Assembly (NCBI RefSeq): GCF_035084215.1 | Contig: NC_090360.1 | Span: 10,230,001-10,294,000, forward strand | DNA from: Heptranchias perlo | Taxonomy: Eukaryota | Direction: 5' to 3' | DNA: 64,000 nt | Shown here: piece by piece, positions 1 through 56,372 of the stretch | Layout of the letters: every line of letters starts with the position of its first letter | Position numbering within the stretch: the first letter of the stretch is position 1 | Notes under the pieces: generated by a model | Told to the model about the DNA's origin: nothing | What the model saw: the letters and a program-made list of their open reading frames with translations, nothing else | The model's database searches: none | Made by a program: the position numbers and the translations under genes

Positions 1-1054
1 GAAAATACAGATAAGGAATTGTCTGAGGATCAAATGCTGACCATATATTTGCAAAGGATAGCTACAGTGCTAGAAACACATGCCCAAACCATTAATAAAT
101 TAATAAAAGAGGAATATAACGTATCTTAGCAGGCGGCTGCTAATGACATCTGCAGTACATATGGTAACTGGATTGTGGAACAGACATGAGAGAACCTAGC
201 CCAGATACAGGCAGGGGAAGTACCCTTATGAATAACGAATCAACAAACTGAGGGTGTACCTGACCTGTGGGCATGATGGAGGTGGTACCTCCAAGCGGCT
301 GTTAGCAAACAAGAACATCACCCCTTGCCAATTCAGGGCAATGCTGCGGGTGTACCCCATTCAAGTGGAGTGTAAACCTGACGGAGGAGGGCTCCTAGGG
401 TTGGTACTGGTAATACTGGTGATGGCACCCGAAACCCAGGGATGAGAGGTGTAACAAGTACAGAATATTGGGGTAGTGAAGGACGGAATGCACATATCCC
501 ATCACAATATGTTACCATATGCTGAAAAAAAATTAAAGGGAATTTCGCTGGAACAAAATTAAAGGGATGTGTTACTAGACATGTTGTCACTTTATGTCCA
601 CATCGTGTTGCACACAGCCCAGAAGCACAGTGTGGGTTTAACAATACCGGTACCTGTCAGGATATTAACTGTACCATGGAGGCCCTAGAGGCGGATCTAA
701 AACCCACTCAAGTGGCATATGCCGGAGAGGGCGAATACTGTGTTACAACTTCTTTGAAAACGTTTAAATATGCCAATATATTTTAAGTCCAGAGTTCTGC
801 TTCATTCCTGAAGTCCCGGTTCGGATTGGACCCGAGGAACTGGGAGAGATACACCGGCATAACCTCACCACTTTACAAGTTTAATAATAATTGCTTTTTG
901 CTTGGTTATCGGATGTTTTAATGTCTGCTGTAAAGTCATGATGGCTCGAATTGTGCCAGGAGCCAGTGTGGCCACTGAAGAAGAACACCTAATGGGGACA
1001 CCCGAAGACGCCAAGGAAGACGGCAATGATGAGGGAGAAGGAATCTATCTGTAA
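1..1054 (+). pseudogene. Decayed envelope/fusion-glycoprotein-like ORF of an LTR element (partial, continues left of window)
   Basis: Manual translation across stops and frameshifts: heptad-like helix (LTIYLQRIATVLETHAQTINKLIKEEY), Cys-rich segment (GCVTRHVVTLCPH..QCGFNNTGTCQDINC..GEYCV), hydrophobic TM-like LIIIAFCLVIGCFNVCC and acidic tail. Lies just upstream of a PPT and LTR. Confidence 0.55.
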
Positions 1055-1715: not shown

Positions 1716-2386
1716 CCCACCATCAACGTCCTGGGGGTCACCATTGACCAGAAACTTAACTGGACCAGCCATATAAATACTGTGGCTATAAGAGCAGGTC
1801 AGAGGCTGGGTATTCTGCGGCGAGTGACTCACCTCCTGACTCCCAAAAGCCTTTCCACCATCTACAAGGCACAAGTTAGGAGTGTGATAGAATACTCTCC
1901 ACTTGCCTGGATGAGTGCAGCTCCAACAACACTCAAGAAGCTCAACACCATCCAGGACAAAGCAGCCCGTTTGATTGACACCCCATCCACCACCCTGAAC
2001 AGTCACTCCCTTCACCACCGGTGCACTGTGGCTGCAGTGTGTACCATCTACAGGATGCACTGCAGCAACTCGCCAAGGCTTCTTCAACAGCATCTCCAAA
2101 ACCCGTGACCTCTACCATCTAGAAGGACAAGGGCAGTAGGCAGATGGGATCAATACCACCTGCACGTTCCCCTCCAAGTCACACACCATCCCGACTTGGA
2201 AAAGTATTGCCGTTCCTTCATCGTTGCTGGGTCAAAATCCTGGAACTCCCTACCTAACAGCAGAGTGGGAGAACCTTCACCACACGGACTGCAGCGGTTC
2301 AAGAAGGCGACTCATCACCACCTTCTCAAGGGCAATTAGGGATGGGCAATAAATGCTGGCCTTGCCAGCGATGCCCACATCCCATC
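1716..2386 (+). mobile_element. 3' part of a CR1/L2-superfamily LINE (RT C-terminus + 3' tail), interrupted by the LTR element
   Basis: ORF 1782-2108 RAGQRLGILRRVTHLL..YKAQVRSVIEYSPLAW is a non-LTR RT C-terminus; a highly similar copy lies at 20705-21597 on the other strand. Confidence 0.85.
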
Positions 2387-3269
2387 AACAATTTTTTTTT
2401 AAAAGCCCCACCGTAACAGAATAATGTGCTACGTGGTATAATACAACGTACCATACGTAGTGTGCCATTTCTGTCCTTAAAGAGTGTATCTTCCGACTTA
2501 CCGTGGGCAATACCAAGGGATGTCCGCTGATGTTGAGAAAATTAAAATATATTCTTGAAGTAAAATAATCGTAGCTATGAAACTATTGAAGTGGTTTGCA
2601 TAGTTTTAAAGGTGCAAGAATTCCAGGAGGAATTCCAGATGCAAGTGAAATTAAGCTCAGGCTTCTATCCTTAACAGATAGATACAATTTTGTTCTAAAG
2701 TTCCCTGTGATGGTAATGAACTGACAGTGCCTACATTGTGTGTTCCACAGTGTGATAAAATGCGAGGCCAGGAAGTGCTTCTTAAAGGCAAATTACCTTG
2801 AAAGGCATCCGCATGGATTCTGTGGGCTGATAGGAATATGAAGCGGAAAGTTCAGTGGCATCTATGATTACCACCCACACATTGTAATCATCAGATTTAT
2901 GTACTAAATCGATATGTGGCTTTGATTAGAGGTTTTAAGTTAAATCTGAATTAATTTTCCCATCAACACCATCATTAATGAGATTAAAGTGAGAGCAAAC
3001 TAGAACATCAAACTACAATTGAGCTTCTTTATATGGCGCTCTCATACGTGGTGGAATTAAATGAAACAATGGCGTTCTTAGTTCGCATATGGATTGTTTC
3101 GAAATATGGCCCAGGAAACAGATACAACACCGACCATATCGTTTGCATTTGTGTAAAACACAATGTACTTTCACCTCAAACATTTGCCTGTAGCTCAGGA
3201 GCTAGTTGCATGCCACTGAATGAGAATGAAAGCTTAGACTGTGGTTTTTAGCAGTGCTTTGTATCTGAC

Positions 3270-8534: not shown

Positions 8535-9825
8535 CTGAACAGGATGTGTGGAGAGCTCTGCTATACTTTCTCTTGATACGACAAACCCCTCCCCCTTTCC
8601 CTATTCGCCGAGCCCGAAGAACGACAACATCATACGCAGCACAATACCCATTGACTTTACATTGTAAACTCAAGCGGCCAGAATTCGCGGGGGAGGGCGT
8701 CTTTGTATGATGTATCTAACGTTTGTATCTAACGTGTGTAATTTTTAGGGGGGTGTGTTTTTTTCATATCTTTTCAACAGTGATCGTTCAGAAGATAATC
8801 TAGACGGAATCTAACGTCAGTAAACGGCCCATTGCTTAACATCCTATTTCTCAGAAAAAAAATAGAGCAGTGTCGAGAGTAAAGTTCACATCGCATTGAG
8901 CATCTTCCGCTTAACATGTAATGACTTGAACTGAGTGATGGTGTGTTCTGCTCGACCAACACATACTTGTTCCGCAAGTTTTCTAAAGGGATCTTCCCAT
9001 TAGATATGTTTATTGTTTGTCGAATGGAAATCTGCAGCACATTAAAGAGGAAGAAGAGGGCTGTACAGTGATAGGTCAAAAATTACGTGCATATTTTATT
9101 GGAATAACATATAACGAGTAAAATTACATAATAACCTTCTTGTTGTTGCCTTAAATCGACAATTTTGTAAAAGTGGTTTGATTTTTCCCCGTGAAAAGTT
9201 TTCTAGAGGATCTGAAATTGGAAGGATTGGAGATTACACAATCGCACATTCTCACGCGTAGTATAAAGTACAGGAGATTTGAAAATCAAATGTAGTGTCT
9301 TGGAAAACTCAAATTTGAAGGCGTTAGTCTGTGCAGCACACAATGGAACGCATGGATAAGTATACTGTCTATCCCTGGGACGTTGTTGGACGATTATTTA
9401 AATGTGTGTTATAAATAATTTCGCGATTAAGAATTATTGATGAGCTGTTCTAGGTTTTAATTAAAGGTTCCATTGTTTCTCGCCGTAAGATGAAGGATCG
9501 CACTGGGAAAGCTGCTCATGACCCAAGGGGCGGCGAGCACTGATTAATTCCAACATTCGTTATACAGAATATGGAGCACAGTCACCAAATGCACAGTATT
9601 AAAATATTTGGCCACACTTATAAACCTTCTGCTTCATAATTGACATAATTTATCGATAGCGTCTATCTCGATTAATTATAATCTCCAGTCAAAAATAGCA
9701 CAGGTAAACTATTTTCGATTATTGCAAGTTTTATTAATTTTTAGTTATACTTTTTAATATTTTTATTTATTTGCCAAGACTTACCCTCAAAGATGGAAAC
9801 AAACAATCTCGTTATGCTAAGATTT

Positions 9826-10021
9826 TATTTTGTGATGAATCCTGATTGTGATTTTATAATGAATATTGATTGTATGTATGATTTTTAACGAATTTCCTTT
9901 ATACGATTTTCTGATGCATTCTGATTGTATGATTTTGTGATGAATTCTGATTATATGATTGTGTGATGCATTTTGATTATATGATTTTGTGATGAGTTCT
10001 GATTACGCGATTTTGCGATGA
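9826..10021. repeat. Degenerate ~26-bp tandem repeat (tgatgaattctgattatatgattttg), about 7 units
   Basis: Repeated units directly visible. Confidence 0.8.
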
Positions 10022-10477
10022 CCAATCAATGCCTTTGTCCGAAGTCTGCTGGTGAAGTAAACGCGGTATCGGTGAAATGTGCACGAATGCGAAGTTACCT
10101 GCGAATATATGCAGATTCTGGGCAGAGGTGAGGTACCAACGGGTTAGTTTGGCGTTTGAAGAGAGGCTTCTTAGCCCTTTAAGTACGTGTCGCAGTAGAA
10201 CGTCGCGACTTCAGACACGTTATTTTTTTACAATGATTTTCTATATTTTCAAAGTGATAGCAGCCTTCAGCTGATATACCTCACGCATTGTACTTTTCTG
10301 CCCATCCAGAAAACCACTGTTTTGTTTTGCTGTTGTAGTATAAAAGTCAGCGGTGTGCATAATCAGCGGTGTACATAATCAACAGACCGTGGAGATTGTT
10401 GGCTATTAAAAGCCAACGTGTAGCATAAACTGAAACTTGTAAAGATGTATTTATTTTGCACGTTGATCATTGCTTGT

Positions 10478-10688
10478 CAAATGTAAGGAATCTTACAACA
10501 CCAGGTTATAGTCCAACTGTTTTATTTGAAAATCACAAGCTTTCGGAGGCTTTCTCCTTCGCTCACCTGACGAAGGAGAAAGCCTCCGAAAGCTTGTGAT
10601 TTTCAAATAAAACAGTTGGACTATAACCTGGTGTTGTAAGATTCCTTACATTTGTCAACCCCAGTCCATCACCGGCATCTCCACATCA
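10478..10688 (+). mobile_element. Fold-back Penelope-like non-autonomous element, family A copy 1
   Basis: Perfect 84-bp inverted arms (10478-10561 / 10571-10654); 3' tail tcaaccccagtccatcaccggcatctccacatca; flanking duplication atcattgcttgt (10466-10477 / 10685-10696). Confidence 0.8.
10563..10599 (+). ncRNA. Minimal type I hammerhead ribozyme motif
   Basis: TCAC-CTGACGA-A-GGAG(aaagc)CTCC-GAAA-GC-T-T-GTGA: CUGANGA and GAAA boxes, stem II, stem I TCAC/GTGA, palindromic AGCT in place of stem III. Confidence 0.65.
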
Positions 10689-11990
10689 TTGCTTGTAATC
10701 ATTATGATTCCAATATATGGACCAAAAAGAACCATCGGGTACTCTCTAACCCTTCAGTGAAAGATTGAGATGAACACATTTTCTCACTTTATAACTATAT
10801 ACAGAACATTCTGATGAATGAGTATTAGAAGTGAGAACCATTTTCAAGGTGTATACAACAGTATTTTTCACCTTATTTCCGCGAACAGCAATGAAAAGTT
10901 AAGAGTTCTTATACCCCAGATCCAAGTAAAATACCCACAGTCTTCTTGTGGTTCAGAGGGGAAGTAGTCACAACGTGTTGTTTCGTGTAAGAATATTTGT
11001 TGAATTAAGATCAATTTTGTTCAAACTGGGACTGCGAGGAAGACGAGAATTTATAGAAAATAGATACGTGGAGGCATGATTTTGTGTGCTCAAAAAGTAA
11101 CATTATGTATGTAGACAAGCAATCTCAGAATTAGTTATTCAAATATGTTGTATCTGAAATAAGTACTTTAACCATATCATTCCCTATATATTTATTCACT
11201 AAGTTGCCAGAAACTGACTTTAGGGTCGATAAGATTTCATAACTCTAATTTGTACGTATTGTACATGAAAGGTGAAAATGCAACCATTTTAAATCAATCC
11301 TTATTACAATGCGTAACTTGGCTAATCTGACGCCTTAAACCTGATATTGTAGCCCAAACCTGAATGTATGAATGTATGAATGGTATGAAAGACCGCTGAT
11401 ACCGATTTATTCAAACTCAGTCATCATCTCTTGATCCAGACTTTAATCTGACATATTGCATTTATAATATAGCAGCACACTTAGGTCAAAATAGTCCTAT
11501 ACAGAGATTCATTCCCAGAGAAAAATACACAATCGATTCTGTTTCAAGTCAAAACATGGGGGCCAATCTAAGGAGCATACAGTATATACAATATTTTTAT
11601 TCCCGCCAGATCCCTGAATAATTAAAATATTTTTTGAATACATATAGCTTTTTTTACACAGATGTACAAACTAAAACTCGCACACACGGATTCAATTCGA
11701 GAAAACTTTGCACTGGACGTCATTTAAATAGATTCGTGATAAATGCAGTTTATTATGAATGTTGGATTTTGGTTGAATGCATGTCGTTACAATTCCATCT
11801 TGATCACATTCTCCATCCACCTAAGACTCATGAAATAAGCAATTACATCAATTATACAAAAGTAATTCACGACAATGATGACATCAAATCTGGGTTATAT
11901 TAGACATCTAGTACATCACGGGCGGCAAAGTTATGTTGCATTTCATTCATTTATGTCCTTGGAAGATTTGGCTGTTGGACGGTTTAGAGT

Positions 11991-13586
11991 CTAAATGTAA
12001 TCACTACCCGATGAATCGTCTTCGGACAGAATCTGTCCAGTTTCTTTTCTCCTGTCGGTGTTGTCCAGGACCCCGGACATGGAATAGTTACCTGCCGAGC
12101 TGCCATGGGCTTTCTTACCCGCCATGCGTTCTTCCATTTTGATGGTGTCGTATAGCCCTTTGGGTCCCTCCTCCAAAAGGATATTTCTCTCAGAAAGCGA
12201 GGGTTTCATTTGGCACACGTTTCTGAGCAACAAGAGGGCAGGGGCATACAGGACGTTGGCACAGCCCATTCCAAGATTGAGCTGCACAAAGCCCAAAGTG
12301 TGGACAATTTGGCCGGCCACGATGGGTCCCAGGGCATAAGCAACAGAATAGGAGATGTCAGCTATAGCATATACACTACCATATACAGATACATGACGAA
12401 CGTCTACCAGGAAGGCAAGGGTAGGCAACAGGGCAGTGTCCACTAGGGCTATCCCAAAACAGAGGGCACACAACGGGATGATAAGTTCTTCAAAATTCCT
12501 GCAAGCTGGGACTGTACACGAGCTAGCACCTATAATAACCATGCCTAATGCCCCGTAGAACCACTGGTAATTGGGATATTTCGCAGCTAGTTTTACAGTG
12601 ATGTATACGCCTAGGATGTGCGGGAAAAATGCCGGCAACCATGTTAGTCCCATTTGCCATTCAGTGGCATTCATTTTCTTTTTCATCCAGGATGATATGG
12701 TAGGTTCTAGGAAAGCTAGTGGGATATTACAAGTGGTAAGAGCCCCGGCTACAACAGCAATATAAGGGTCGATCATAAGTTTATAGATGGGGGTGCCTTG
12801 CGGCATATTTTCACGTGTTCTACTAGTAAAAGGTTTAATGACAGTTAGCAACAAAATACCGTCCATCAGGGAGACAAAGGATAACACTAGGAAGGGGACA
12901 CTCTTGCCCGCGAACTCGTATAATATACCACCAAAGGGGGGCGCCACCAAACTTCCAAAGGAGATGAAAGCCAAGGCGATGCCGAGGGCTGTGCTCCTCT
13001 CCGACTCTTCCGTGTATTTGTCCGCGATCATGGCAATTCCGGAGGTATCTGCAAACGCCGACCCCAACCCTTGGAGGCTTCTGGCTACGAATAGCATGGC
13101 ATAGCTTTCGCCGAAAGCAAAGGTGAGGGTGGAAAAGAACATAATGGTGAGCCCTATGAATAGAGGAATGTCGTACCCCACCCGGTCAATGAAAGTACCA
13201 GTCAATGGGTTAGCAAGCAGCTGAAGGATGGCTTTAGACGCAAAGAGCACCCCGATTTGCAAGTCTTCATTTTCATTGGGGTTCCTGTACAATATGGGTC
13301 TCTGCGTGGAGTTGACAAACGAACCATTGGTTCCGTTGGAAGATGACGTGACATACACCAGTTTATAAGTTCTTATAGTTTCAAGGTAGTTTGGTATGAT
13401 CGGTACAATCACCATATACAGCATGTTGTCCAACAAGAGTGCAATGCATACAATGACCAGCATAATTCTTCGCTGCCGCCGCGGTTCATGCATAGCACCA
13501 CTTATCTGTTTAGTTCTTTCGCCAACCACGTCTGAAATTTTCACCACGGCTGACTTCGCCAGTCCGATCGTCATTTCTGCAGCCAT
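11991..13586 (-). CDS. SLC18A3: Vesicular acetylcholine transporter (VAChT), intronless, 531 aa
   Basis: MFS multi-TM protein with [49 protein letters not shown] and the C-terminal SERNILLEE dileucine motif; closely resembles Torpedo VAChT; upstream of CHAT coding exons on the same strand. Confidence 0.98.
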
Positions 13587-16129
13587 GATTGTCCACTATT
13601 GATCTGAACAAACTTTCTCTCAGCTCAACAGAACGGATTTGGTCTTCTGTCACTCTTGGCTCTCGCAGGCGGATACTGTAACTATTATCTCGACATTGAT
13701 TCCCGAAAACTTTCTGGCTTTACTTCCGATCAGTGAAACCGACAGACACTGATTTCACTAAATCTGTTCTGTGATCTTGGTGCATAGTCCCTGGCCCACG
13801 AGAAGGAGCTCACAGCAACAAGGGGACAGATGTGGCGGTGGAGAGATTTCACTCGTAAACACGCTGAACCAAGAACTCTTCAAGCCTGCTTTGCTGTAAT
13901 TCCTCGTTCAGTCCAGAAAAAAAACACAATTAAGAGATTCTAGTGACTAGCGAGCGGTCACATTACCAGATTCTAGGAGATTTGAGCTTCTGCAGTTCAT
14001 ACTTTTTCCCACCTGTAACATTCAATTCGTCTTCCGCTTGATTCCGGGACACTGGGTATGCTGCCCATTTACACCCATTGAGTCGCATGCTCTCCGACTC
14101 CTCGGTTTTTCGAAAGCTTATGACGCGCTCTTGCTCTGCCCGGTCTAGTTACATCTGAATACGCCCATTATGTTAATTTGACACGTGACCGGGTCTTCTC
14201 CAATTACAGCCAAGACGGGGATTCCTGTCTTCACGAAAGGCGGAGCTCCGAGCGAGCAGTCCAATGTTGGAACAAAGGCGTTAACGGTGCGTCTCCAACA
14301 TTTGCTCAACACATTTTAGGAGAACTCGTCCTATTGCTCTGTTGCTTTGATGTTCACGTAGGACTGGAGACAGGGTGACTTGACAACTTGCAAAATATAC
14401 GATGCGCACAAACTATTTAGCAACTACGAGCATATTGGGACAGAAACTGAATATTTTTAACTGGAATATAGAAATAGACAGTCCGCGTAGTTTATGGACT
14501 GGGTTAATTTCCACAGTCTCTCCAATTGTGTCCCAGTGTTGGTGCCTGGTACTGAATGTTCAGCCTTACACTGTTGCCGCTTGATAATAAAGAGTGCAGT
14601 AAATACCCCACTATTTGTAACAGCGGATTCTTCTGCTGTACGCTCTCTCCACTTTCACCGTTTTTTCGGCAGCGTCACAGTAACTGCAGCCCAGTATTTT
14701 TCAGTGGCGTTAAAATAACATTCTCTCCTCCCACACCCCCATAATTGAAATTACTAATTCCCAATCGCTCTCATCTTTTCCAGTCCAACTGCCTATTTCT
14801 CAGCCAACCAATTGCATTTGTTGGTTGCTCTTATCGAGATTAATCTGTATGTCAGATAAATGTGCATTAGGTTTCTGTCTTTGTGTACTGCAATATCTCG
14901 TTGTCTATCTCTTGTGTGTTCCACTTATATAATGGAACTAAAACATGACAGCGGGACACCATTGAGTCAAAGGACAACATGAGTTGCTGAGTGGGTGAAA
15001 AGGCCTTAACAGAATATTGCATATTCACAGCAACTGGAGGGGCAGCAGTCTAGGTGTGACTCAGACCTTACTAGAATCTTCCTTGAAGTTGCTTCCTCAT
15101 TTAAAACAAAAACAATTTATCTTATCAGTTTTGTCCGGGCTGTGGACTGTGCAAGGGTAATGATTCAGTAATGTTATCCTTTTGAAATTGTTACCCATGT
15201 TCATCAATTAGCAGGCAGCGCTGAAAACAGGCTTCTCGCATGAGTGCTCTCGAACTGATCATGTTTGGCATCCGATTCCAAGGGCATGATCTACTCCGAA
15301 TTAAGCTGCAAACTTGAGTCACTTTTCTATCCCTCGTCAGGTCCATTCACTGTAGATTACCTACTGCCGCAGTGAGAGCTATTTTCAAACGCACGATTGT
15401 TCTCTTATCAATCACTGTTTTGGTAGAAGGGCGCGATAGAGGAACATGAATAACAATTGCTAACCTTTTCTGTTCACTCGGGGTTATAGCTGGAACCCAA
15501 AATGTGTTCCAACGTTTGAAACTCGAGGTTTAACTGCAGTCGGTTTTTGTGTTATAATAACCCGAATTAAAAGGGAAATGGCGAAAGTTTTCACTCCTTT
15601 TGTTGAGTTCTCGACCGTGACCTCAGAGGACACGGACTTTAATTCCCGGTTGAGGTCACTCACTAAAGTTAATTGTCCACTTGGACGGTCAAGAGAGAAA
15701 ATTTTAGTGCAAGGATATAACATTTTTAGGTAATAAATTACACTAGAATCACGACGCTAAGCTTGTCGATGCTGATGCTTTATTATTCCTTCAGCTGGTA
15801 TTTTGGGAGAAAGTGAAACCGATGAGAAAAATATAAATATATAGAATCGCTGAGGTCATACCTCAAAACTCCTTCAAGCGGCAGACTGAAATGACAAGCA
15901 TTCTGGCGCAAAATACGTTGCATCGGCGAGAAACCCTGTCACTGGAGAAAGTGATCAAAGCAAACTGAATCTGACAGATACGCCAAACAACTGGACGGCA
16001 CATAAATGCTGGAAAATGCACTATCTTGGTTTTATTTTAGATATTTCTAATGATTGGCAATCAAATCACAGTACACTACCCACACTGATTAACAGTACGA
16101 ATGGAAAGTCATTCTGGTTAGGAAACTAT

Positions 16130-19500: not shown

Positions 19501-20704
19501 TAATGCAATAAATGTTCAATGAATCTATCTAGTAGCTCATAGTCTAAACCACAGCCTGTCATGAGTGTTTATTCTTTTGCCTGTTGAAGTTGATGAAAGC
19601 ACATGGTGGTATGTGATGTCTCTATTGAGATGAAACTACATCACAAGGGTTCTCTGTTTGACCCTTTAGGCTTGTTATATTCACCTAAATATTGGGCAAG
19701 TAAAGCACACTCTGGGTCATATGGAGTGATATGGGTCATATGGGGTGGTCTGTAATTTTGAACCAGAGGCAAATATCTAGTGTAAAAACCCAAAAGTGTA
19801 ACACTGCAGCTGTGGTGTACTGTATGTGTTCATTAGTAAGGATGTTGTCAAGTCTTTAATAATAATAAATCATTTTACTCATGTTCACTAATGTAGCAAG
19901 AGTCTTCCAAAGCAAGATGTTTAGAAGAAATTCCAAATCAGTAACATAGTTAAAATACTATATTTGGTTTTCAAAAAAACTTTGGTGATCTTAAGGCTAT
20001 ATTTATGGGGAAACATAGTTCCACTCTGTCAATATTTCACTATTTCTTTCACCACTTCTGTCTTATGAGGAGTGAAATTTCTTGAGCACACATGAGACAG
20101 ATTTCAGAGCAATCAAAAATACAGCATTTCATTTACTCATTTCCAAAATGAGTAAATTTATGTTTTGAATTAAAACCAAAAATAAGTGAGTTTCATGAGG
20201 AAATTAGGACTTGGCTGACTTTCCTGATTAACTGCACAAAATATGGTAGAATGCCACATAATAGAAAATGAGATGGCCTCCACTTCATAGGTAAGTTTAC
20301 TTGGACAGTTGCCTTGAAAACTTTAACACTGTTACCTACCATCATACAGCTCACCCATTCTAGGATCTTTTAGATCTGTGCATGAATGCATCTATGGCAT
20401 GACAGAAATCTTCTCATGATTTTTAGTACTTACATATTGCTGAAAGCTTCTGCGTTTTGCGATGTTCCAAAGTTTTAACTAGCCACCAATGCACAATAAT
20501 GGAGAACGTTGTACAATATTTTTAGCTGGTATTACCAGTTTCTTAGACAAACGACTGTACACTAAACCAATGTAAGTGGGTCTGTAGTTAACTTCAGGAT
20601 ATTCATACATTTTGACAGCTTGTGTATCTATCACTTTGTCAGCCAGCATGCTCTTATGATAGCTGTTAAAGTCCAAATTTCCCATTTTTTCATTTTTAAA
20701 AATT

Positions 20705-21597
20705 TGTTCACGGGATGTGGGCGTCGCTGGCGAGGCCAGCATTTATTGCCCATCCCTAATTGCCCTCGAGAAGGTGGTGGTGAGCCGCCGCCTTGAACCG
20801 CTGCAGTCCGTGTGGTGAAGGTTCTCCCACAGTGCTGTTAGGAAGGGAGTTCCAGGATTTTGACCCAGCGACAATGAAGGAACGGCGATATATTTCCAAG
20901 TCGGGATGGTGTGTGACTTGGAGGGGAACGTGCAGGTGGTGTTGTTCCCATGTGCCTGCTGCTCTTGTCCTTCTAGGTGGTAGAGGTCGCGGGTTTGGGA
21001 GGTGCTGTCGAAGAAGCCTTGGCGAGTTGCTGCAGTGCATCCTGTGGATGGTACGCACTGCAGCCACAGTGCCCCGGTGGTGAAGGGAGTGAATGTTTGT
21101 TTAGGGAGGTGGATGGGGTGCCAATCAAGTGGGCTGCTTTATCCTGGATGGTGTTGAGCTTCTTGAGTGTTGTTGGAGCTGCATTCATCCAAGCAAGTGG
21201 AGAGTATTCCATCACACTCCTGACTTGTGCCTTGTAGATGGTGGAAAGGCTTTGGGGAGTCAGGAGGTGAGTCACTTGCCATAGAATAACCCAGCCTCTG
21301 ACCTGCTCTTGTAGCCACAGTATTTATATGGCTGGTCCAGTTAAGTTTCTGGTCAATGGTGACCCCCAGGATGTTGATGGTGGGGGATTCGGCGATGGTA
21401 ATGCCGTTGAATGTCAAGGGGAGGTGGTTAGACTCTCTCTTGTTGGAGATGGTCATTGCCTGGCACTTATCTGGCGCGAATGTTACTTGCCACTTATGAG
21501 CCCAAGCCTGGATGTTGTCCAGGTCTTGCTGCATGCGGGCTCGGACTGCTTCATTATTTGAGGGGTTGCGAATGGAACTGAACACTGTGCAGTCATC
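20705..21597 (-). mobile_element. CR1/L2-superfamily LINE, 5'-truncated
   Basis: ORFs 21139-21585 (MQQDLDNIQAWAHKWQVTF..ILGVTIDQKLNW) and 20973-21275; same family as 1716-2386. Confidence 0.88.
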
Positions 21598-22541: not shown

Positions 22542-22767
22542 GAAATAAAAACAGAAAATGCTGGAAATACTCCAAGTCAGACAGCATCTGTGGAGAAAGA
22601 AACAGAATTAATATTTCAGGTCGATGACCCTTCATCAGTTCTGACGAAAGGTCATCGACCTGAAATGTTAACTCTCTTTCTCCACAGATGGTGTCTGACT
22701 TGCTGAGTATTTCCACCATTTTCTGTTTTTATTTCAAATTTCCAGCAGCCACAGTATTTTGCTTTTG
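22542..22767 (+). mobile_element. Fold-back Penelope-like non-autonomous element, family B, with central hammerhead motif
   Basis: Imperfect ~95-bp inverted arms (22542-22638 / 22641-22735) plus 3' tail; centre AGTT-CTGACGA-A-AGGTC(atc)GACCT-GAAA-TG-T-T-AACT. Confidence 0.75.
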
Positions 22768-31518: not shown

Positions 31519-32956
31519 CATTGCCGCTCTGTCAAACGCTGGACAGCTCTGAGGCTTGAGTGCCGCCACGTGGCAAAAGGCGGTAATTCAATTGAAAGCG
31601 TATTCAGTGGCACCAACAGAACCACTCTACGTTATTTCCATTGAAATAACAGTTGTTAATTGAAATTAAAATAATTCTTTCTTTTCAGACTTAGCGTCTC
31701 AATTTTGCACAATTACCAAATCAACCAACTCTAATTGTCCTGTTCAAGTACAGAATTCGCTTTTTGAATCTTTTGAATTTTAGTCAAAGAACCAATGCCC
31801 ACAACACGGGACACTGAAGAGTAAAAGGAAGCAGTGGTTGGGTGATGCCCATCCTGGATTTTAAAAGGCTGCAGTTGAAGGAAGAAGGGTAGACTGAGTG
31901 GAGATGAGGAATTGCACAGTTTATAGGTCCTGGGAAAGAATGAGTTACTGCTGGAAGAGAGTTTTCATTTCAACACAACAAAAACGCACGAAGGACAGGG
32001 TGTGTGTGGTGTATTTGGAGTTGATTAGGAATAAGGAAGGAAAATTAAGAGAACCACAAACTATAATCATGTTGGTGCAGTCGAAAAATGCAAGAAAATT
32101 TGCACTAAAGAAGCAGAGTTTGGAGACTTGGCATGAAAGGAGAGTCAGTTATAATACATCAATCTTTTTCTTGCATTCTGTCAGAGTGCGAAATAATATT
32201 TCAAGTTTTGAACAGACTTGTGAAATAAGCAAGAATACTAATTTTGAGTCTGGATCCTGCAGATTTAAGGTGTGGGCACAGTATTGTATCATTTTTTAAG
32301 TTGCAAAACCAGAGAGCCTTCTAGTAACATATGAAACAAAATAGTGCATGTTAATAAAATTCCCTTGTGATACATTGGTAATATTTCCCTTGAAATACAG
32401 CGATAAAGATGGCACCAATGAGATTAATAGTCTCAGGAGTGTCATCGCTTATAGTACTTAGATACTGGAACTCCTATGTCAGCAAAGAATCCTGTTTGTA
32501 ATTTCTAACCTTTAAAAATGACAAAAGTATATTTTATATAAAATAATATCCAGGGAGCTGGTCTGATACTCCTGCTTAGTCTGGGTGTTCAGATAGCATG
32601 TAGAAACTATAAAATAGTTTCTGATATATTCTAAATTCCTTCTTTAATTTATAGCTTGTAACTCATTCTGTGGCTTCTATTTTATATATAATTTATTATA
32701 AAATTCAATCTTCTGAGTTAAAATATATAGTAATCGAAGAAGGCGATCAATAAATAGCAAATTTGTGTGAAGGATAATTTGCTTTTTTCCTTGGCGCATA
32801 TGTACAATGTCTTTACTTTTTTTTAGCATTTTAAGGGATTAGTTAAATCTTTTTCCCATTTACATTTATTGTCTCTCTCTTAGAGTTCCACATGTCATTT
32901 AGACATCAGGCAGTGATGCAATCTGGTCTCAGGTTCCTACCTGACCTGTTCTTGTC

Positions 32957-33187
32957 TTGTAAACAATTTTACAACACCAAGTTATAGTCCAGCAATTTTA
33001 TTTTAAATTCACAAGCTTTCGGAGGCTTCCTCCTTCGTCAGGTGAACGATGTGAACATCGTTCACCTGACGAAGGAGGAAGCCTCCGAAAGCTTGTGAAT
33101 TTAAAATAAAATTGCTGGACTATAACTTGGTGTTGTAAAATTGTTTACAATTGTCAACCCCAGTCCATCACCGGCATCTCCACATCA
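32957..33187 (+). mobile_element. Fold-back Penelope-like non-autonomous element, family A copy 2
   Basis: Perfect 96-bp arms (32957-33052 / 33055-33150); same 3' tail as copy 1; 13-bp flanking duplication tgttcttgtcttg (32947-32959 / 33188-33200). Confidence 0.82.
33061..33099 (+). ncRNA. Minimal hammerhead ribozyme motif (mirror copy on minus strand at 33008-33046)
   Basis: TTCAC-CTGACGA-A-GGAG(gaagc)CTCC-GAAA-GC-T-T-GTGAA. Confidence 0.65.
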
Positions 33188-35619
33188 TGTTCTTGTCTTG
33201 GCCAATATGAGGTGTGTGAGAAAGTGGCTTGTGGTGATCCTCCCTCTATTGTTCACCCCTGTCAGGAGGAAGGCTTCTCTTCTGTTCCTTCCATTGATAC
33301 ATTCTGAAGAACAGGAACTTGTCCTGTGGGGAAAATTGGGAATATAAAACCATTTCTTATCCCTCCATGACACAGTGTGTTAGACCATAATTGGATAACT
33401 TTACCATTGCACCTTAGTGCTAATGATTTATCTTGGAAGAATTCTAGCAAAGGAATTTTGTTCAGTTCCATTATGAACTATTGGAAACAGAAAACTTGCA
33501 GTATTTACAAGTTGAGCTCAATTTTTTAAAAAAACATGAAAACAGCACCTCTTTTGGGTATGTTAAACTTTCAAGGTGATTGTAATCATTTAATTATTTT
33601 GATGTTGGCCTGTTTTTATGTGTGTGTATTAGCAGCTTTTTCCTATCACATTATAAAATAATTCCGTGAGGACAGCCAATAACCTAAGGAGTCAGTCACT
33701 TCGTTCTCACCCAATAGTCCAAGAAATGAAATGCCAGATACTCAAACACATTTACTGCTGTTTTATAAATTCTATTGCTCTTTGTTCTTGACACTAAATG
33801 CAGGGTTGACTGGGGAGTAACGGAATTGCATTAGTAAGTTAGGACCATGAAAAAGACATTGTCCAGTTCACACATCAATTTGCAGCATGGGGAATAGCTG
33901 TCCTTAGAGGAGAAACATCCATGGGGACACAGTTACATAAAGAAGGTCAGTGGGCTGCAAAAGAAAGGAACATGGTGGGACTAAAAAGTGTGTGTTGGTT
34001 TGTATTTTTCCCTGCCGTATGCAATGTAGAAGCAGGGATGATCTGTTGAGCTTTGGTCAATAAAATTACTAAAGGAATCAGATGTGAAGTTTCCCTCAGT
34101 ACTACACCAAATCAAGATGGTCAAAAATGAATAAATACATTTTCATCACTTAAACCCCTAGGGATATAATTCTATCACTTTTGCTCTGGTGATAACTGTA
34201 TTTAGTGACATGGTATGTGGTGGTGTTTCATTTAATTGCCATTGGTTATTAAAGCTGTTCTGTTTTCCTCCATATTATCCATTATGGTCACTGCTGATTT
34301 TACTACTCCACTGTCCAGAGGTTAGCTTATATTTTTGCATGTGTTCCATCCTGGAAGTGTTGATAGCAGCACACAGATGATGGGATACAGCAGACACTAA
34401 AGTTATTGTTCAATTTGTCCTCATTTTCAGCTCCTCATTGCAATCTACCTCTGCAAACTCCTTCAATCCTACATCCCACCATGTACCCTTCACTTTTCCA
34501 GTTCCGTTCTATTGTGTGTCTTCCCCCTTCCTCTGCTCCATTGTTGGTGACAGAATATTCACCCATTATGTCTGAATTCTCTTCTTACATTTCTCCACCT
34601 TTCTATCTCTTTCCCCATCTTCAAATGCCTTCCCCTTTGGTCATCTCCTGTACCTTCTCTCCTTGCTTGGTGCCCTTTGATCCCCTTGTAAAGTGCCCAT
34701 GGATGTTTTGTTCTGTGAAAGATTTTGTATGTATGTAACAAAAATAAAATTAAGATATTCAACCATGAAAGGACTCTCGTCTTACATTGGATAGGAGTCA
34801 AGAACAGCATCTGATTGTATTTTATAAATTAAAGTCTGGTATAAATTAAAGTTTTAGCAGTGCTGCATGTGTCCATCAGTCCTCACATCCCCACACAATA
34901 TGTAGTGTTGGTGACATGGATGTGTGGACAAATTTGAATTTAGCTCTGCACATTGCAACACATTTACGCCGATTGCTCCATCCAGTGCAGTGCATTTTTT
35001 ATGCTAATGATGAATAGTGGTGGCCTCAGGCCTACGTCCTTATAGAGGAACATGTGCTTTAGTGAGCCTCATGCTAGCATTTAAAGCCTGTGTTTGATAT
35101 ACTTAACAATTACATTTGCTCAAACATATTTGAAGTGAAAATAAGTTGATAAATAGCTTATTGCTGGATGTTACTGCTTCATGTGGCTACATCCATTGAT
35201 GGTCTTATGCCTATACTTCAATGACATTTTGACCAACAATAAGCTCCTTAATAACTAAGCTTCAGAGTCAAAATGTGACTGTGTGGAATCATTATTTGCA
35301 AAAATGAAAAGCATAGAATTGATAGATTCATTCACTTAGTAATATTTCTGTTTGTAGGAATGTTGGCCAACCAAGGAGGCTCTTGAAAAGGTGTCGTGAA
35401 ATGTGTGAATCTTACAGGGTTATGAAATCCCGTAGGAAGGAGTCAGGTGCAGATTAGAATTGATGAAAGTGATGCTGTGGAATGGTCATATTATCAACTG
35501 AAGAAGAGAAAGGGCATTGGATTTTTTTTCTCCAAAATCCATTCGATCATTGGCAAAACTCAACAAAATGGAACTCTGATCATTGAAGCTATGTTCCTAG
35601 TTATTCATTAGCGTGGTGA

Positions 35620-43640: not shown

Positions 43641-45438
43641 ATGGCCACGAGGATAGCAGGACCGGCTCGAGTGAGGGCTCCACGTTTCTCCGATGATGCA
43701 CTGGAGGCCCTGGTGGAAGGGGTGGACGAAAGGAGGGCCAGCATGTACCCGCAGGGTGGCATGAAACCCTCCAGACTGCAGCTCCGCAGGCTGTGGCACA
43801 AGAAATTAATGCCAGGAGAATTTTACCACGCACGTGGATGCAGTGCCGATAGAAGTTCAATGATCTGACGCGAGTGGTCAAGGTAAGCGAATGCAAGTGC
43901 ACATCCTACCCACTGCTCCACGCATCACACTCCCCATCACCCACCCACCAACAAACGCTGCCCATCCATCTGCAATGCTGCACTCGGCATGCTGCATCTC
44001 ATCCGCACACTTGCAGGCTACACAACCACCACTCATAGGTCACACAAATTGGCAGCTATTCGACCACGACAGGCACATCACCCACACACCTTGCAAGATA
44101 CTCACTGACACACCGTCCTCTGTCTTGCAGGAGAAGGTAGCGCGTAACAGCCGGCAGCAGGAGAGACGTGAGGGTGGACGGGGACGCTTACACATCCTCA
44201 CCCCCCCCCCCAAGAGGAGACTGTGCTTCAGATCATTGGGCGGGCCATCGCTGCAGCCGTGACAACATGCCGCGCTGGAGGTCCCGATGAAGGGGGTCTC
44301 TGCATATCTAATGCTCCTTCTCCTTTTCCCAGATCTCCCTCCTCCCGTAATCTTTTCTGACTCACGTGCTGCAGATGCTGTCAGCACGCACGTCTTACCT
44401 GCTCCTCTCCCCACTCCACAGCTCAACCTGTTTCCCTTTGTCATTGCAGATATCCAAGAACACGTGGCAGCACCGAGGAGCAGGAGGAGGGGGACACTGA
44501 AGCCGAACCGTCACTCGATCTGACACTTGCTTCCACCAGCTCAGAGACTGACACTGGGTGTCCTTTAGAGGCTAGGTTAGAGGAGGGATCTGCACGTGGT
44601 GAGACACCGAGCACAAGTGCGCAGGAGCCGGGGTGGGGGGGGGAACGAATACCACAGGTGCCAGCTCACCAGAGGGTGAGGTCGCTCACTAGTTCTGCTG
44701 CAGAGGAGTCAGATGAGGACTTCAATGGGCCGGGTTACAGAAGACGGCTGATGGGCCTACACCACCAAATGCTTGGGGCACTGGAAAGCCTGCCAGAAAA
44801 CCTGCGCACAATGAGAAGGGGCATGGAGGAGTCCAGCTTCAACTTGGCACAGGGCTTTGTGCAGAGCTTGGAGCCCATCCATTTCAACATGGGTGGTCAC
44901 CTCCATCAGCGCACCTGTGGAACCCACCAGGATGCAGCGTCTGATGACTGATGTCACAGCTTCCACTGCAGCACAAACATTTGCCATCCAAGGTCTGACT
45001 GCTGCCTTGGAAGCTCAGACCACTGTGGAAAGGAGCTTCCAGGATATCACAGCACTCCAGCAATCCATTCTCCAGCTGATCACCAGGATTGCTGAGGTGC
45101 CGCCCTGGGAGAGTGGCAGTGGTGCCATGGCAGTTGGACCTGCTGTCCTCTCTCAGGACGATAGCCTTCCTGCTCCCACCCCTACCACTCCACCAGTGCC
45201 CCTGTTGTTGCCTACTGGCCAGTCAGGCCAGACTGCTGCAGCCTATGCTGAGATGGTGCAGTCTGAAGCTGAGCTGTCCCGGCCCAGAGCTGCTCGAGGT
45301 CGTCCTCCAAGGCCATCTGCATGCTCCTCCATTGAAGGCCAGCAACCTCCCACCACCCATGCTCCAGCCACTGGGGAAGCACCTCGTGGGAGCACTAAGA
45401 TAGGTAAAGGCACTAAGGAAATGCACAAGGGTGAATAG
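43641..45438 (+). pseudogene. Harbinger Myb/SANT-like DNA-binding gene (spliced, frameshifted)
   Basis: RAPRFSDDALEALVEGV..W..RTWMQC.KKFNDL-like motif; donor aag|gtaagc at 43882; acceptors ttgcag at 44130 and 44449; AATAAA near 45473. Confidence 0.75.
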
Positions 45439-45639: not shown

Positions 45640-46775
45640 TGATAGCGGGTACGGATCAGGCGAGCATGCAGAGCCCTTGGAGACGAGGCGTGTGGTCCAG
45701 TTGCACCCTTGCTTCTTCCTCCACTTTCTCTTCCACCTCCGCCACCTCTGGCTCAGGGTCTTCTCCAATCATTGGCAGCAAAGGCTGGTCCGTCATGATG
45801 GTGAGGTTGTGCAGCAGACCACCACGAATCTGCCCACCTGCTCAGGGGAGTACAGCAGGACTCCTCCAGACCAGACCAGGCAGTAGAAGCATTGTTTGAG
45901 GAGGCCTATGATGTGCTCCACGATGTTGCATGTGGTAGCATGGCTCTCATTTAAAGGCCTGCTGTGCACGTGTACGTGGGTTGCTGACCAGTGTCATGAG
46001 CCACTGGGTGAGGGGATAGCCCTTGTCGTCCAGTAGCCAGCCTTTGAGTCAGGTGAAAGACAGCTGGCACGTTGGACTGCCGCATGACGAAGGTGTCGTG
46101 ACTGCTTCCAGGGTAGCGGGCATTGACCTCCATGATTCGATGCATGTGGTCGCACACCAGCTGCATGTTGAGGGAGTGGAAGCCCTTTCGGTTGACAAAG
46201 ACGGCTGAGTTGATATGCGGGACACGCAGGGCAATTTGCGTGCTGTCAATGGAACCGTGCACCATGGGGAAGCCAGCAATGCGAGAGAACCCCTGGGCTC
46301 GCTTGTTCTGCTCCTCTCTATGGCGAGGGAAGGTGATGAGCCTGCTCCTCATCTGGTACAGTGCGTCTGTGACCTCCCTTATGTAGCAGTGCACTGCATA
46401 CTGCGAGATGTTGCACATGTCGCCAGCAGAGGCCTGAAATGCTCCTGAGCCGTAGAAATTCAGCACCACTGTGACCTTCACAGCCACAGGCAGTGCTGTC
46501 TCTGCCCTGCTCGGAGGCTGCAGTTGTGGCCGCACCAGTCGACAGATCTCGGTCACAGCTTCCTTGGTGAAACTCGGGCGTCGGATGCAATCCTCCTCCG
46601 TCATGTTGAGATAAGAGAATTGGTCCTGAAAAGCCCTCGTTGGGTAGGGCCTCCTGCTCAGTGCCCTGTGCCTCCTCGTCCTCTGTCTCCTCGCAGCTTG
46701 ACCTGCTATACGTGGCCTCTCTGCATGCTCCCAGTCATGCTCAATGCCCAGCGGGAGCTCTAGCAGACCGCCCAT
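45640..46775 (-). pseudogene. Harbinger transposase (HARBI1-like DDE nuclease), frameshifted
   Basis: GFPMVHGSIDSTQI, NRKGFHSLNMQLVCD, YPGSSHD, then after a frameshift near 46050 GWLLDDKGYP..FNESH..VEHIIGLLKQCF. Confidence 0.88.
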
Positions 46776-47289
46776 GGTTGCCAGGAATGTTGTTCAACCA
46801 CGGTTGTAACTTTCCGAACTGTAAGGCAGTACCTGCCAAACCGCTCTCAAATGTACTCTAGGGACTTTCAGTAAGAATAGGGAGCTTCAAAAAACACTTC
46901 CTATTCCACTTGCAGCCAGAAGCAATAATCCAGCAACTAACCTGCAACACCTGCATGGCCCCTTTAAATAGCGCTGGTGGCGGGGGGGGGGGGGTCCTTC
47001 AGGCGCTGTAAGACACGTTCAGATGGTCGGGGTTAAGACTGCATGGAGTTGAGCGGTAAGGTCCAAAATTGTGTCTGTCACTTTAAATCAGCGTTGCACA
47101 CTGCATGCACTTTCTTCCTACTTTACATGCGCATGTGCTAACTCCTATAACAAGATGGCATCGGGCGCACATCATGCTGGAAATGTGCGTGCGCATCCAA
47201 GACGCCATCTTGGATGGTCAGAGGCCATGTCGCGCCGAAAAACGGGCATTACATGGTCCAATTTAGTGCCCATTATTCCAACTATGGCC

Positions 47290-56202: not shown

Positions 56203-56372
56203 GGGGTAATTTTGACTTTGTGTGATCGTGTAAAACGGGTGATAACGAATCAGCAGCCTGTTTTACATCTCTCCATTGAAGTCAATGGAAATAAAAAGCA
56301 GGAGAGATGTAAAACAGCTTGCCAATTCGCCCTCGTCCATTTTACACTATCGCACAAAGTCAAAACGACCTC
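56203..56372. mobile_element. Palindromic MITE (Harbinger-like)
   Basis: Long imperfect inverted arms (ttttgactttgtg / cacaaagtcaaaa; gttttacatctctcc / ggagagatgtaaaac) and internal palindrome ccattgaagtcaatgg. Confidence 0.75.

What the first reader, a model, noticed from the sequence alone, without database searches (positions are those of the whole stretch)
32947..33200. Second family-A hairpin: each copy is perfectly self-symmetric but differs from the other
Seen: 96-bp perfect arms, 2-nt loop, full hammerhead on both strands, identical 3' tail to copy 1, 13-bp TSD. Copies 1 and 2 differ at many arm positions (ccagg/ccaag, aactgtttt/agcaatttt, aaggaatctt/aaacaatttt) while the hammerhead boxes, stem II and tail are invariant and the apex position differs. 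Inference: the inverted arm is made anew from one template at each insertion (or homogenised by conversion), and selection preserves the ribozyme and tail. This points to an active ribozyme-bearing small retroelement system.
Basis: partly seen in the sequence, partly recalled or inferred. Interest (0 to 1): 0.72.

Follow-up and report, generated by a model that had tools for sequence, protein, structure and literature searches.

The report
Head-to-head Penelope retroelement end stub
This 254-base DNA hairpin is real, but it is a short mirror-image stump of a very abundant, known kind of jumping gene (a Penelope-like element), most likely built during insertion from two copies of the start of the element's RNA and predicted to be unable to fold its ribozyme, so it is ordinary in kind though useful as a footprint of how these elements insert.

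Summary
In detail: 96/96-bp arms, 2-nt apex, 37-nt one-sided tail, 13-bp TSD. The sequence is the end (minimal hammerhead + tail) of an abundant endonuclease-bearing Penelope-like element (PLE): 36,854 exact tail matches; the tail stops at the ATG of a 901-aa RT + GIY-YIG ORF in 3,081-bp tandem units. Inverted truncated copy + optional tail + TSD is the published PLE insertion pattern. Of 97 sampled copies, 54 have an inverted arm ending at the tail start, mostly with a 10-14-bp TSD. Arms run from ~40 bp to 3 kb. The two arms of a copy match (1.4% vs 6.9% divergence between copies), and rare mutations are one-sided (39 vs 5), so symmetry is made at insertion, not by conversion. Short ends pile up just downstream of a TATA/Inr-like promoter, not at the ribozyme cut. 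The tail-less arm is often the longer one, which argues against simple fold-back. Best model: both target strands prime on one RNA and the cDNAs join head-to-head. It is not a separate small ribozyme retroelement. The scan already noted this pattern many times, in this and other genomes.

The parts
32947..32959 (.). Left target-site duplication, 13 nt; last 3 nt coincide with the start of the inverted arm
32957..33052 (-). Inverted, tail-less copy of the PLE end (from about 14 nt upstream of the hammerhead core to the tail start)
33013..33041 (-). Minimal hammerhead core of the inverted arm
33053..33054 (.). Apex: head-to-head junction of the two 5' ends, a few nt downstream of the predicted Inr; this exact junction recurs at 69 genomic places
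33055..33150 (+). Direct arm; with the tail it matches long pLTRs of the same subfamily at 132/133 (L044) and 133 identities with one gap (L031 minus copy)
33060..33100 (+). Minimal type-I hammerhead: stem I 33060-65/33095-100, CUGACGA, extra A, stem II, GAAA, AAGCUU; predicted cut between 33094 and 33095
   Evidence: motif as described in PMC4209133
33151..33187 (+). 37-nt one-sided tail; in autonomous copies it ends at the A of the ORF start codon
33188..33200 (.). Right target-site duplication; begins with TG, as does the element sequence after the tail
10466..10696 (+). Copy 1: other subfamily (125/127 to L017), 84-bp perfect arms, 9-nt loop, 12-nt TSD

Best explanation
The hairpin is a stump of an abundant endonuclease-bearing Penelope-like retrotransposon, two head-to-head copies of the element's hammerhead-bearing end between a 13-bp target duplication, most likely made during one insertion when both cut target strands primed reverse transcription on the same RNA, and predicted to be a dead end. 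Shown: identity of the element, architecture, one-template origin of the arms, two fixed 3' ends (tail end and tail start), staggered ~12-bp duplication. Inferred: the GIY-YIG cuts both strands about 12 bp apart. One strand primes at the tail end, just before the AUG, and the other about 36 nt further in. On a transcript that starts at the pLTR TATA/Inr just upstream of the hammerhead, both cDNAs run off the RNA 5' end after 100-140 nt. The two same-sense cDNA ends then join by 0-6-nt self-complementary microhomology or filler and are filled in. Priming at the downstream pLTR of the same kind of RNA gives the long versions. The ribozyme is an inherited passenger, conserved in source elements and not used to define these ends.
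For: Element: tail 36,854x; tail-ORF junction 686x; 901-aa ORF with RVT_1 E=3e-10, GIY-YIG E=3e-4 (just under the Pfam cut-off), DKGG, CX5CxxC and CC within GIY-YIG; a same-subfamily pLTR heads a 901-codon open ORF in L062. Architecture: 54 of 97 copies have an inverted arm ending 27-42 nt before the tail end (35 of 54 at -35 to -38); 44 of 54 have a 10-14-nt TSD; long versions up to 3 kb have 12-14-nt TSDs. One template; arm lengths pair up, 50 short-short, 11 long-long, 0 mixed of 61 vs 18 expected. Two primers rather than fold-back: tail-less arm longer in 28, tail-bearing in 13, equal in 13; L118 has a 3-kb tail-less arm vs a 207-nt tailed arm; the same asymmetric apex has the tail on the left in 5 and on the right in 5 of 10 loci, with four stem-II/N7 variants; near the cut site 39 of the first 50 of 92 apexes are exactly the 6-bp self-complementary AAGCTT with no loop. 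Run-off at a start site: of 120 short ends, 0 lie at TATA -27..+9, 20 at +10..27, 30 at +28..34 and 33 at +35..51; genome-wide in this subfamily 8,579 arms reach -16, 4,383 reach -20 and 3,232 reach -26, a loss of 15% vs 5% per nt across the Inr at -17. Biochemical precedent: a Poseidon PLE protein cuts and extends both strands, starts RT at two internal sites that bound the tail, and does not need ribozyme cleavage (PMC11167929).
Against: No RNA 5' ends were observed, so the start site is a motif prediction. Ends are spread over about 40 nt, and 20 of 120 lie upstream of the predicted start. End calls depend on a 23-copy reference library. [quoted passage not shown] A few copies have arms that differ at subfamily sites (L028 three, L089 four; L106 mosaic), so the template is not always one molecule. 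Some apexes carry long filler that needs repair synthesis. The sample is 97 young copies from the first 8.1 Mb of one contig, chosen by exact tail.
Confidence: 0.62

Rival explanations
1. Same element and same dead-end status, but the mirror arm arises by self-priming: the first cDNA folds back (or, as proposed in PMC3846280, an antisense RNA self-primes) and copies itself.
For: Explains at once why arms are near-identical and why lengths pair up. Proposed in print for palindromes at PLE inverted junctions (PMC3846280). The antisense version predicts the tail-less arm to be longer, which is the majority (28 vs 13, p=0.03).
Against: Each single version predicts one fixed asymmetry, but both occur, and one apex carries the tail on either side 5:5. 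Loop-less AAGCTT apexes suit intermolecular annealing better. Occasional two-subfamily arms cannot come from one strand.
Confidence: 0.24
2. The hairpins are a non-autonomous ribozyme mini-element (retrozyme- or MITE-like) copied as whole units, with the ribozyme cutting unit-length RNAs.
For: The exact apex of this copy occurs 69 times at unrelated sites with their own TSDs. The core is conserved across subfamilies. Head-to-head sources with tails on both sides exist (L124, L125). One array of 404-bp tandem units containing the tail-ORF junction is listed on C2.
Against: 69 of 1,948 apexes (3.5%) is the same rate as other simple junctions, which recur 2-3 times in the first 50 loci. Two distinctive filler apexes are single-copy. 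Same-apex copies carry different symmetric variants. Ends are not enriched at the cut: 3 of 150 within +27..+31, and none of 50 listed apexes is blunt at the cut. The stem II closing pair has probability 0.0 in read-through transcripts of either strand vs 0.99 in the leader alone. No tandem head-to-tail arrangement here.
Confidence: 0.07
3. Arms were inserted independently or diverged and are kept identical by gene conversion or cruciform repair.
For: 5 rare alleles in 4 census copies are present in both arms; copy 1 carries a variant in both arms relative to L017.
Against: 39 rare alleles are one-sided; older copies keep 3-6 mismatches; an older hairpin of another family at 22598-22681 is 88% complementary.
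Confidence: 0.04
4. Assembly artefact (fold-back reads).
For: No listed read-derived piece spans the apex.
Against: 13-bp TSD, one-sided tail, fixed arm end at the tail start in 54 of 97 copies; unitigs cross both outer junctions unchanged; opposite-strand joints are also seen in read-derived contigs of the long element.
Confidence: 0.02

Closest known systems
EN+ PLE insertions with an inverted 5'-truncated pLTR, optional 30-40-bp tail and TSD (Adineta vaga Pen2a/Pen3a, PMC3846280, passages; overview PMC8557442, passages)
   Same: Head-to-head inverted copy lacking the tail, one-sided 37-nt tail, TSD, TATA/Inr-like motifs in the pLTR, partial tandems of full-length units.
   Different: Here the direct copy is itself only about 133 nt, with no ORF between the repeats. 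Such stubs are the commonest form (49 of 97). The tail ends at the start codon rather than inside the ORF.
Poseidon of Anolis carolinensis, PAc (PMC11167929, parts 1-2 of 4 read)
   Same: Two element 3' ends bounding the tail; hammerhead upstream; ends not set by the ribozyme cut.
   Different: This element has the CX5CxxC linker (Neptune/Nematis type), which is absent in Poseidon. Its ORF starts after the tail, not in stem II. That paper does not explain inverted copies in the parts read.
Minimal hammerheads of metazoan PLEs (PMC4209133, parts 1-2 of 4 read)
   Same: Extra nucleotide between 9 and 10.1, G10.1-C11.1 pair, palindromic residual helix III; that paper already reports pairs about 100-700 bp apart on opposite strands and attributes single motifs to truncated PLEs.
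   Different: Cleavage was not tested here; the opposed cores are 25 nt apart.
Non-LTR retrozymes (10.64898/2026.07.22.740005, part 1 of 5 and passages)
   Same: Short, non-coding, PLE-pLTR-derived, with a type-I hammerhead.
   Different: Retrozymes are head-to-tail tandems of two or more ribozyme units; this is head-to-head, with no sign of unit copying.

Membership tests
EN+ Penelope-like element (parent) | Single ORF with RT and C-terminal GIY-YIG | tested here: met
   901 aa; RVT_1 E=3e-10; GIY-YIG E=2.7e-4, 21.6 bits vs cut-off 22.6
EN+ Penelope-like element (parent) | DKG motif; two cysteines between GIY and YIG | tested here: met
   DKGG at 296; C..C inside the VVY...YIG stretch at 790; definitions from PMC8557442
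EN+ Penelope-like element (parent) | Tandem or partial-tandem units forming pLTRs | tested here: met
   3,081-bp tandem in L045; partial tandem in L123
EN+ Penelope-like element (parent) | Hammerhead motif in the pLTR | tested here: met
   Rfam models do not reach the threshold
EN+ Penelope-like element (this insertion) | Inverted 5'-truncated copy, 30-40-bp one-sided tail, TSD | tested here: met
Neptune/Nematis clades | CX2-5CxxC linker between RT and EN | tested here: met
   CX5CxxC at 753
Neptune versus Nematis | RT phylogeny with named references | not tested
   No named reference sequences among the 120 listed homologues. Only Neptune and Poseidon were reported from vertebrates in the retrozyme preprint, so Neptune is likely.
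Non-LTR retrozyme | Head-to-tail tandem with at least two ribozyme units | tested here: not met
   Head-to-head single hairpin
Non-LTR retrozyme | Ends defined by ribozyme cleavage | tested here: not met
Non-LTR retrozyme | Unit-length or circular RNA, self-cleavage | not testable with these tools
   Only contigs of guessed-RNA runs were available
MITE / foldback DNA transposon | Terminal inverted repeats, fixed unit and fixed TSD | tested here: not met
   One-sided tail; variable apex, length and TSD

The most novel reading that the evidence does not exclude
The thousands of short hairpins are a fossil read-out of the unresolved Penelope insertion cycle: both target strands prime internally on one uncleaved transcript, run off its 5' end at the pLTR promoter, and the two cDNAs anneal head-to-head. 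Apex positions would then map the element's transcription start in vivo, and show that the ribozyme does not process the template.
Probability: 0.55. Interest if true: 0.5.

Novelty: new member of a known kind. Interest (0 to 1): 0.24.

Why it matters
As an object it is ordinary: one of tens of thousands of PLE stubs. It matters only as evidence on mechanism. PMC8557442 names the formation of tandem/inverted PLE structures as unresolved, and the counts here give testable predictions: two primers, one template, run-off at a TATA/Inr start, joining at self-complementary words. Practically, such stubs should be annotated as PLE ends, not as MITEs, retrozymes or functional ribozymes. They would yield ~100-bp double-stranded RNA if transcribed.

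Tried and rejected
Rfam scan of the window: 0 hits. DNA search of the own genome: no candidates because common words are skipped, so patterns were used instead. An early idea that the apex G is a copy of the RNA cap was dropped: the apex is explained by templated sequence plus 1 nt of microhomology. Ribozyme cut as template end: rejected. Unit copying of hairpins: no support in two tests; only two apexes were tested. PDB sequence search with the ORF gave one weak RT hit, E=0.84. Sequencing runs: no RNA holder listed; all 7 runs are contigs of one sample. Guessed-RNA contigs cover the element but cannot show strand, start or level, and no splice joint stood out among those shown. No empty-site joint was among the joints shown; 118 were not shown. 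A genome-wide count of arms reaching the TATA box was not obtained; the count stops at -26. Literature searches listed no paper whose title or abstract start states the run-off plus dual-priming reading. Arkhipova 2006, Evgen'ev and Arkhipova 2005 and the Xena paper were not read, and no supplements were opened (Fig. S2 of PMC11167929 bears on genomic ends), so absence from print is not established.

Full report
Observation. The hairpin is as described: arms 32957-33052 and 33055-33150 are fully complementary, a 37-nt tail follows the right arm, and 13 nt are duplicated at 32947 and 33188. Copy 1 has 84 perfect pairs, a 9-nt loop and a 12-nt duplication, and is 90.8% identical over 131 nt. The ribozyme motif is the minimal type-I form: the leader folds stems I and II, stem III is one pair inside AAGCUU, and Rfam finds nothing. 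PMC4209133 (parts 1-2 of 4 read) describes this form in PLE pLTRs, reports no monomer cleavage for the one tested, and already notes pairs on opposite strands. Unitigs from the same sample cross both outer junctions without differences.

What it is. The 30-nt tail has 36,854 exact matches in the 3.25-Gb genome. In long copies the sequence upstream runs into a 3' UTR and an ORF end. In 686 places the tail continues directly into ATG. L045 holds a 3,081-bp tandem unit with a 901-aa ORF carrying RVT_1, a C-terminal GIY-YIG, DKGG and a CX5CxxC linker. By the definitions in PMC8557442 (passages) this is an EN+ PLE of Neptune/Nematis type. Its closest named homologues are shark proteins at 80-94% identity. 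The hairpin's direct arm plus tail matches long pLTRs at 132/133 (L044), and a pLTR of the same subfamily heads an open 901-codon ORF in L062. The inverted truncated copy, the optional 30-40-bp tail and the TSD are the published PLE pattern (PMC3846280 and PMC8557442, passages; PMC8969392, passages).

Census. I fetched the first 98 of the 100 listed tail sites on contig C1 and dropped one tandem duplicate, leaving 97. The sample is biased to young copies. 54 have an inverted arm ending at the tail start, 12 have other inverted matches (long arms cut by the fetch limit, head-to-head ORFs, a few spurious) and 31 have none nearby. TSDs among the 54 peak at 12 nt. Wider fetches of 16 long loci show the same build with arms to 3 kb and 12-14-nt TSDs in several; others are partial, interrupted or lack a called TSD. 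Divergence between the arms of one copy is 1.4% (42 copies, 24 perfect) against 6.9% between copies. At common diagnostic sites arms disagree in 13 of 576 cells against 219 expected. Rare alleles sit on one arm 39 times and on both 5 times, so symmetry is made at birth and then decays. Shared variants avoid the catalytic core (0 of 12 columns vs 12 of 29 other ribozyme columns, p=0.008; vs 22 of 86 of all non-core columns, p=0.06), while rare mutations hit core and spacer alike. Selection therefore acts on source elements, not on the stubs.

Is the hairpin a unit? Its exact apex recurs 69 times, which first looked like unit copying. But the subfamily has 1,948 head-to-head apexes of many kinds, several recurring at a similar rate. 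Ten same-apex loci carry four symmetric variants and have the tail on either side, 5 and 5. Two distinctive filler apexes are single-copy. A transcript through the hairpin is predicted to lose stem II entirely. Recurrence is better explained by a narrow range of end points.

Where the ends fall. Long pLTRs have a TATA-like box 36-47 nt upstream of the core, and in this subfamily an Inr-like TCATTT whose A is 30th counted from the first T of the box. Of 120 ends within 100 nt upstream of the core or downstream of it, none lies at TATA -27..+9, and 83 lie at +10..+51. Genome-wide counts fall 15% per nt across the Inr and 5% per nt beyond it. After dropping 5 duplicate or spurious rows, 50 copies have both arms short, 11 both long and none mixed. 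The ribozyme cut is not an end hot spot: 3 of 150 ends lie within +27..+31. Of the first 50 of 92 apexes near the cut, 39 are exactly AAGCTT, which lies 5' of the scissile bond; none is blunt at the cut, and at most 7 could have one arm ending there.

Mechanism. Shown: two fixed 3' ends, a ~12-bp duplication, a single template in most copies, and either arm can be the longer (tail-less 28, tailed 13, equal 13). From PMC11167929: a PLE protein cuts and extends both strands, starts internally at two sites bounding the tail, and does not need ribozyme cleavage. Inferred: both strands prime on one RNA, the cDNAs run off at the start site, and they join at short self-complementary words. Fold-back or antisense self-priming (proposed in PMC3846280) remains the main rival. 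It fits arm identity but not the two-way asymmetry, the loop-less AAGCTT joints or the few mixed-subfamily arms. Confidence that this is a PLE insertion stub is about 0.97; confidence in the detailed mechanism is about 0.6.

Context and prior notes. The window holds an intronless ORF most similar to the vesicular acetylcholine transporter; this copy lies about 19 kb upstream of it, and nothing tested suggests a function. The scan's own unchecked notes reach the same reading many times: 40 findings in at least 11 genomes, and 87 notes fitting the look-up in this genome. I formed my reading before opening them. One note from another genome says apexes also mark the ribozyme cut, and another that hairpins are copied as units; neither held in my tests on this genome.

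Verdict. Real feature, known kind, new member; modest value as mechanistic evidence. Interest 0.24.

Noticed in passing
window 22555-22730: Older hairpin of another family with a hammerhead-like core on both strands (arms 22598-22638/22641-22681, 88% complementary; flanking sequence also looks inverted); probably a decayed stub of a second PLE family.
   Followed up: partly
window 11991-13595 (-): Intronless 534-codon ORF matching the vesicular acetylcholine transporter (E=3e-211); copy 1 lies about 1.3 kb beyond its stop. Nesting in the ChAT locus is recalled, not tested.
   Followed up: partly
window 45951-46793 (-) and 44361-45438 (+): DDE_Tnp_4 ORF (E=1e-11) facing G+C-rich ORFs without a Pfam hit; likely a decayed Harbinger-type transposon (family name recalled).
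   Followed up: partly
G000:C2:21273033-21276294: Nine tail-ORF junctions spaced exactly 404 bp apart: a head-to-tail array of a pLTR-derived unit, the best retrozyme-like candidate seen.
   Followed up: no
L124 (1744-8032) and L125 (4377-8104): Head-to-head insertions with more-than-unit-length arms and 12-bp TSDs; in L124 one arm is a full unit plus 148 nt, ending near the predicted start site.
   Followed up: partly
L106:1500-1600; L028; L089: Hairpins whose arms differ at subfamily-diagnostic sites or switch subfamily inside stem II, suggesting occasional use of two RNAs or template switching.
   Followed up: partly
census loci L001-L090: In 74 of 90 copies the base after the tail is T and in 42 it is TG, as in the AUG that follows in the element; suggests 1-2-nt primer pairing or a cut preference.
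   Followed up: partly
window 56205-56370: Imperfect 70-bp inverted repeat (80%) with a 26-nt spacer and no hammerhead core; MITE-like.
   Followed up: no
window 9822-10011: 26-bp-period minisatellite.
   Followed up: no
window 1716-2397 and 20698-21384: Two LINE-like 3' fragments in opposite orientation, 91-98% complementary, about 18 kb apart.
   Followed up: no
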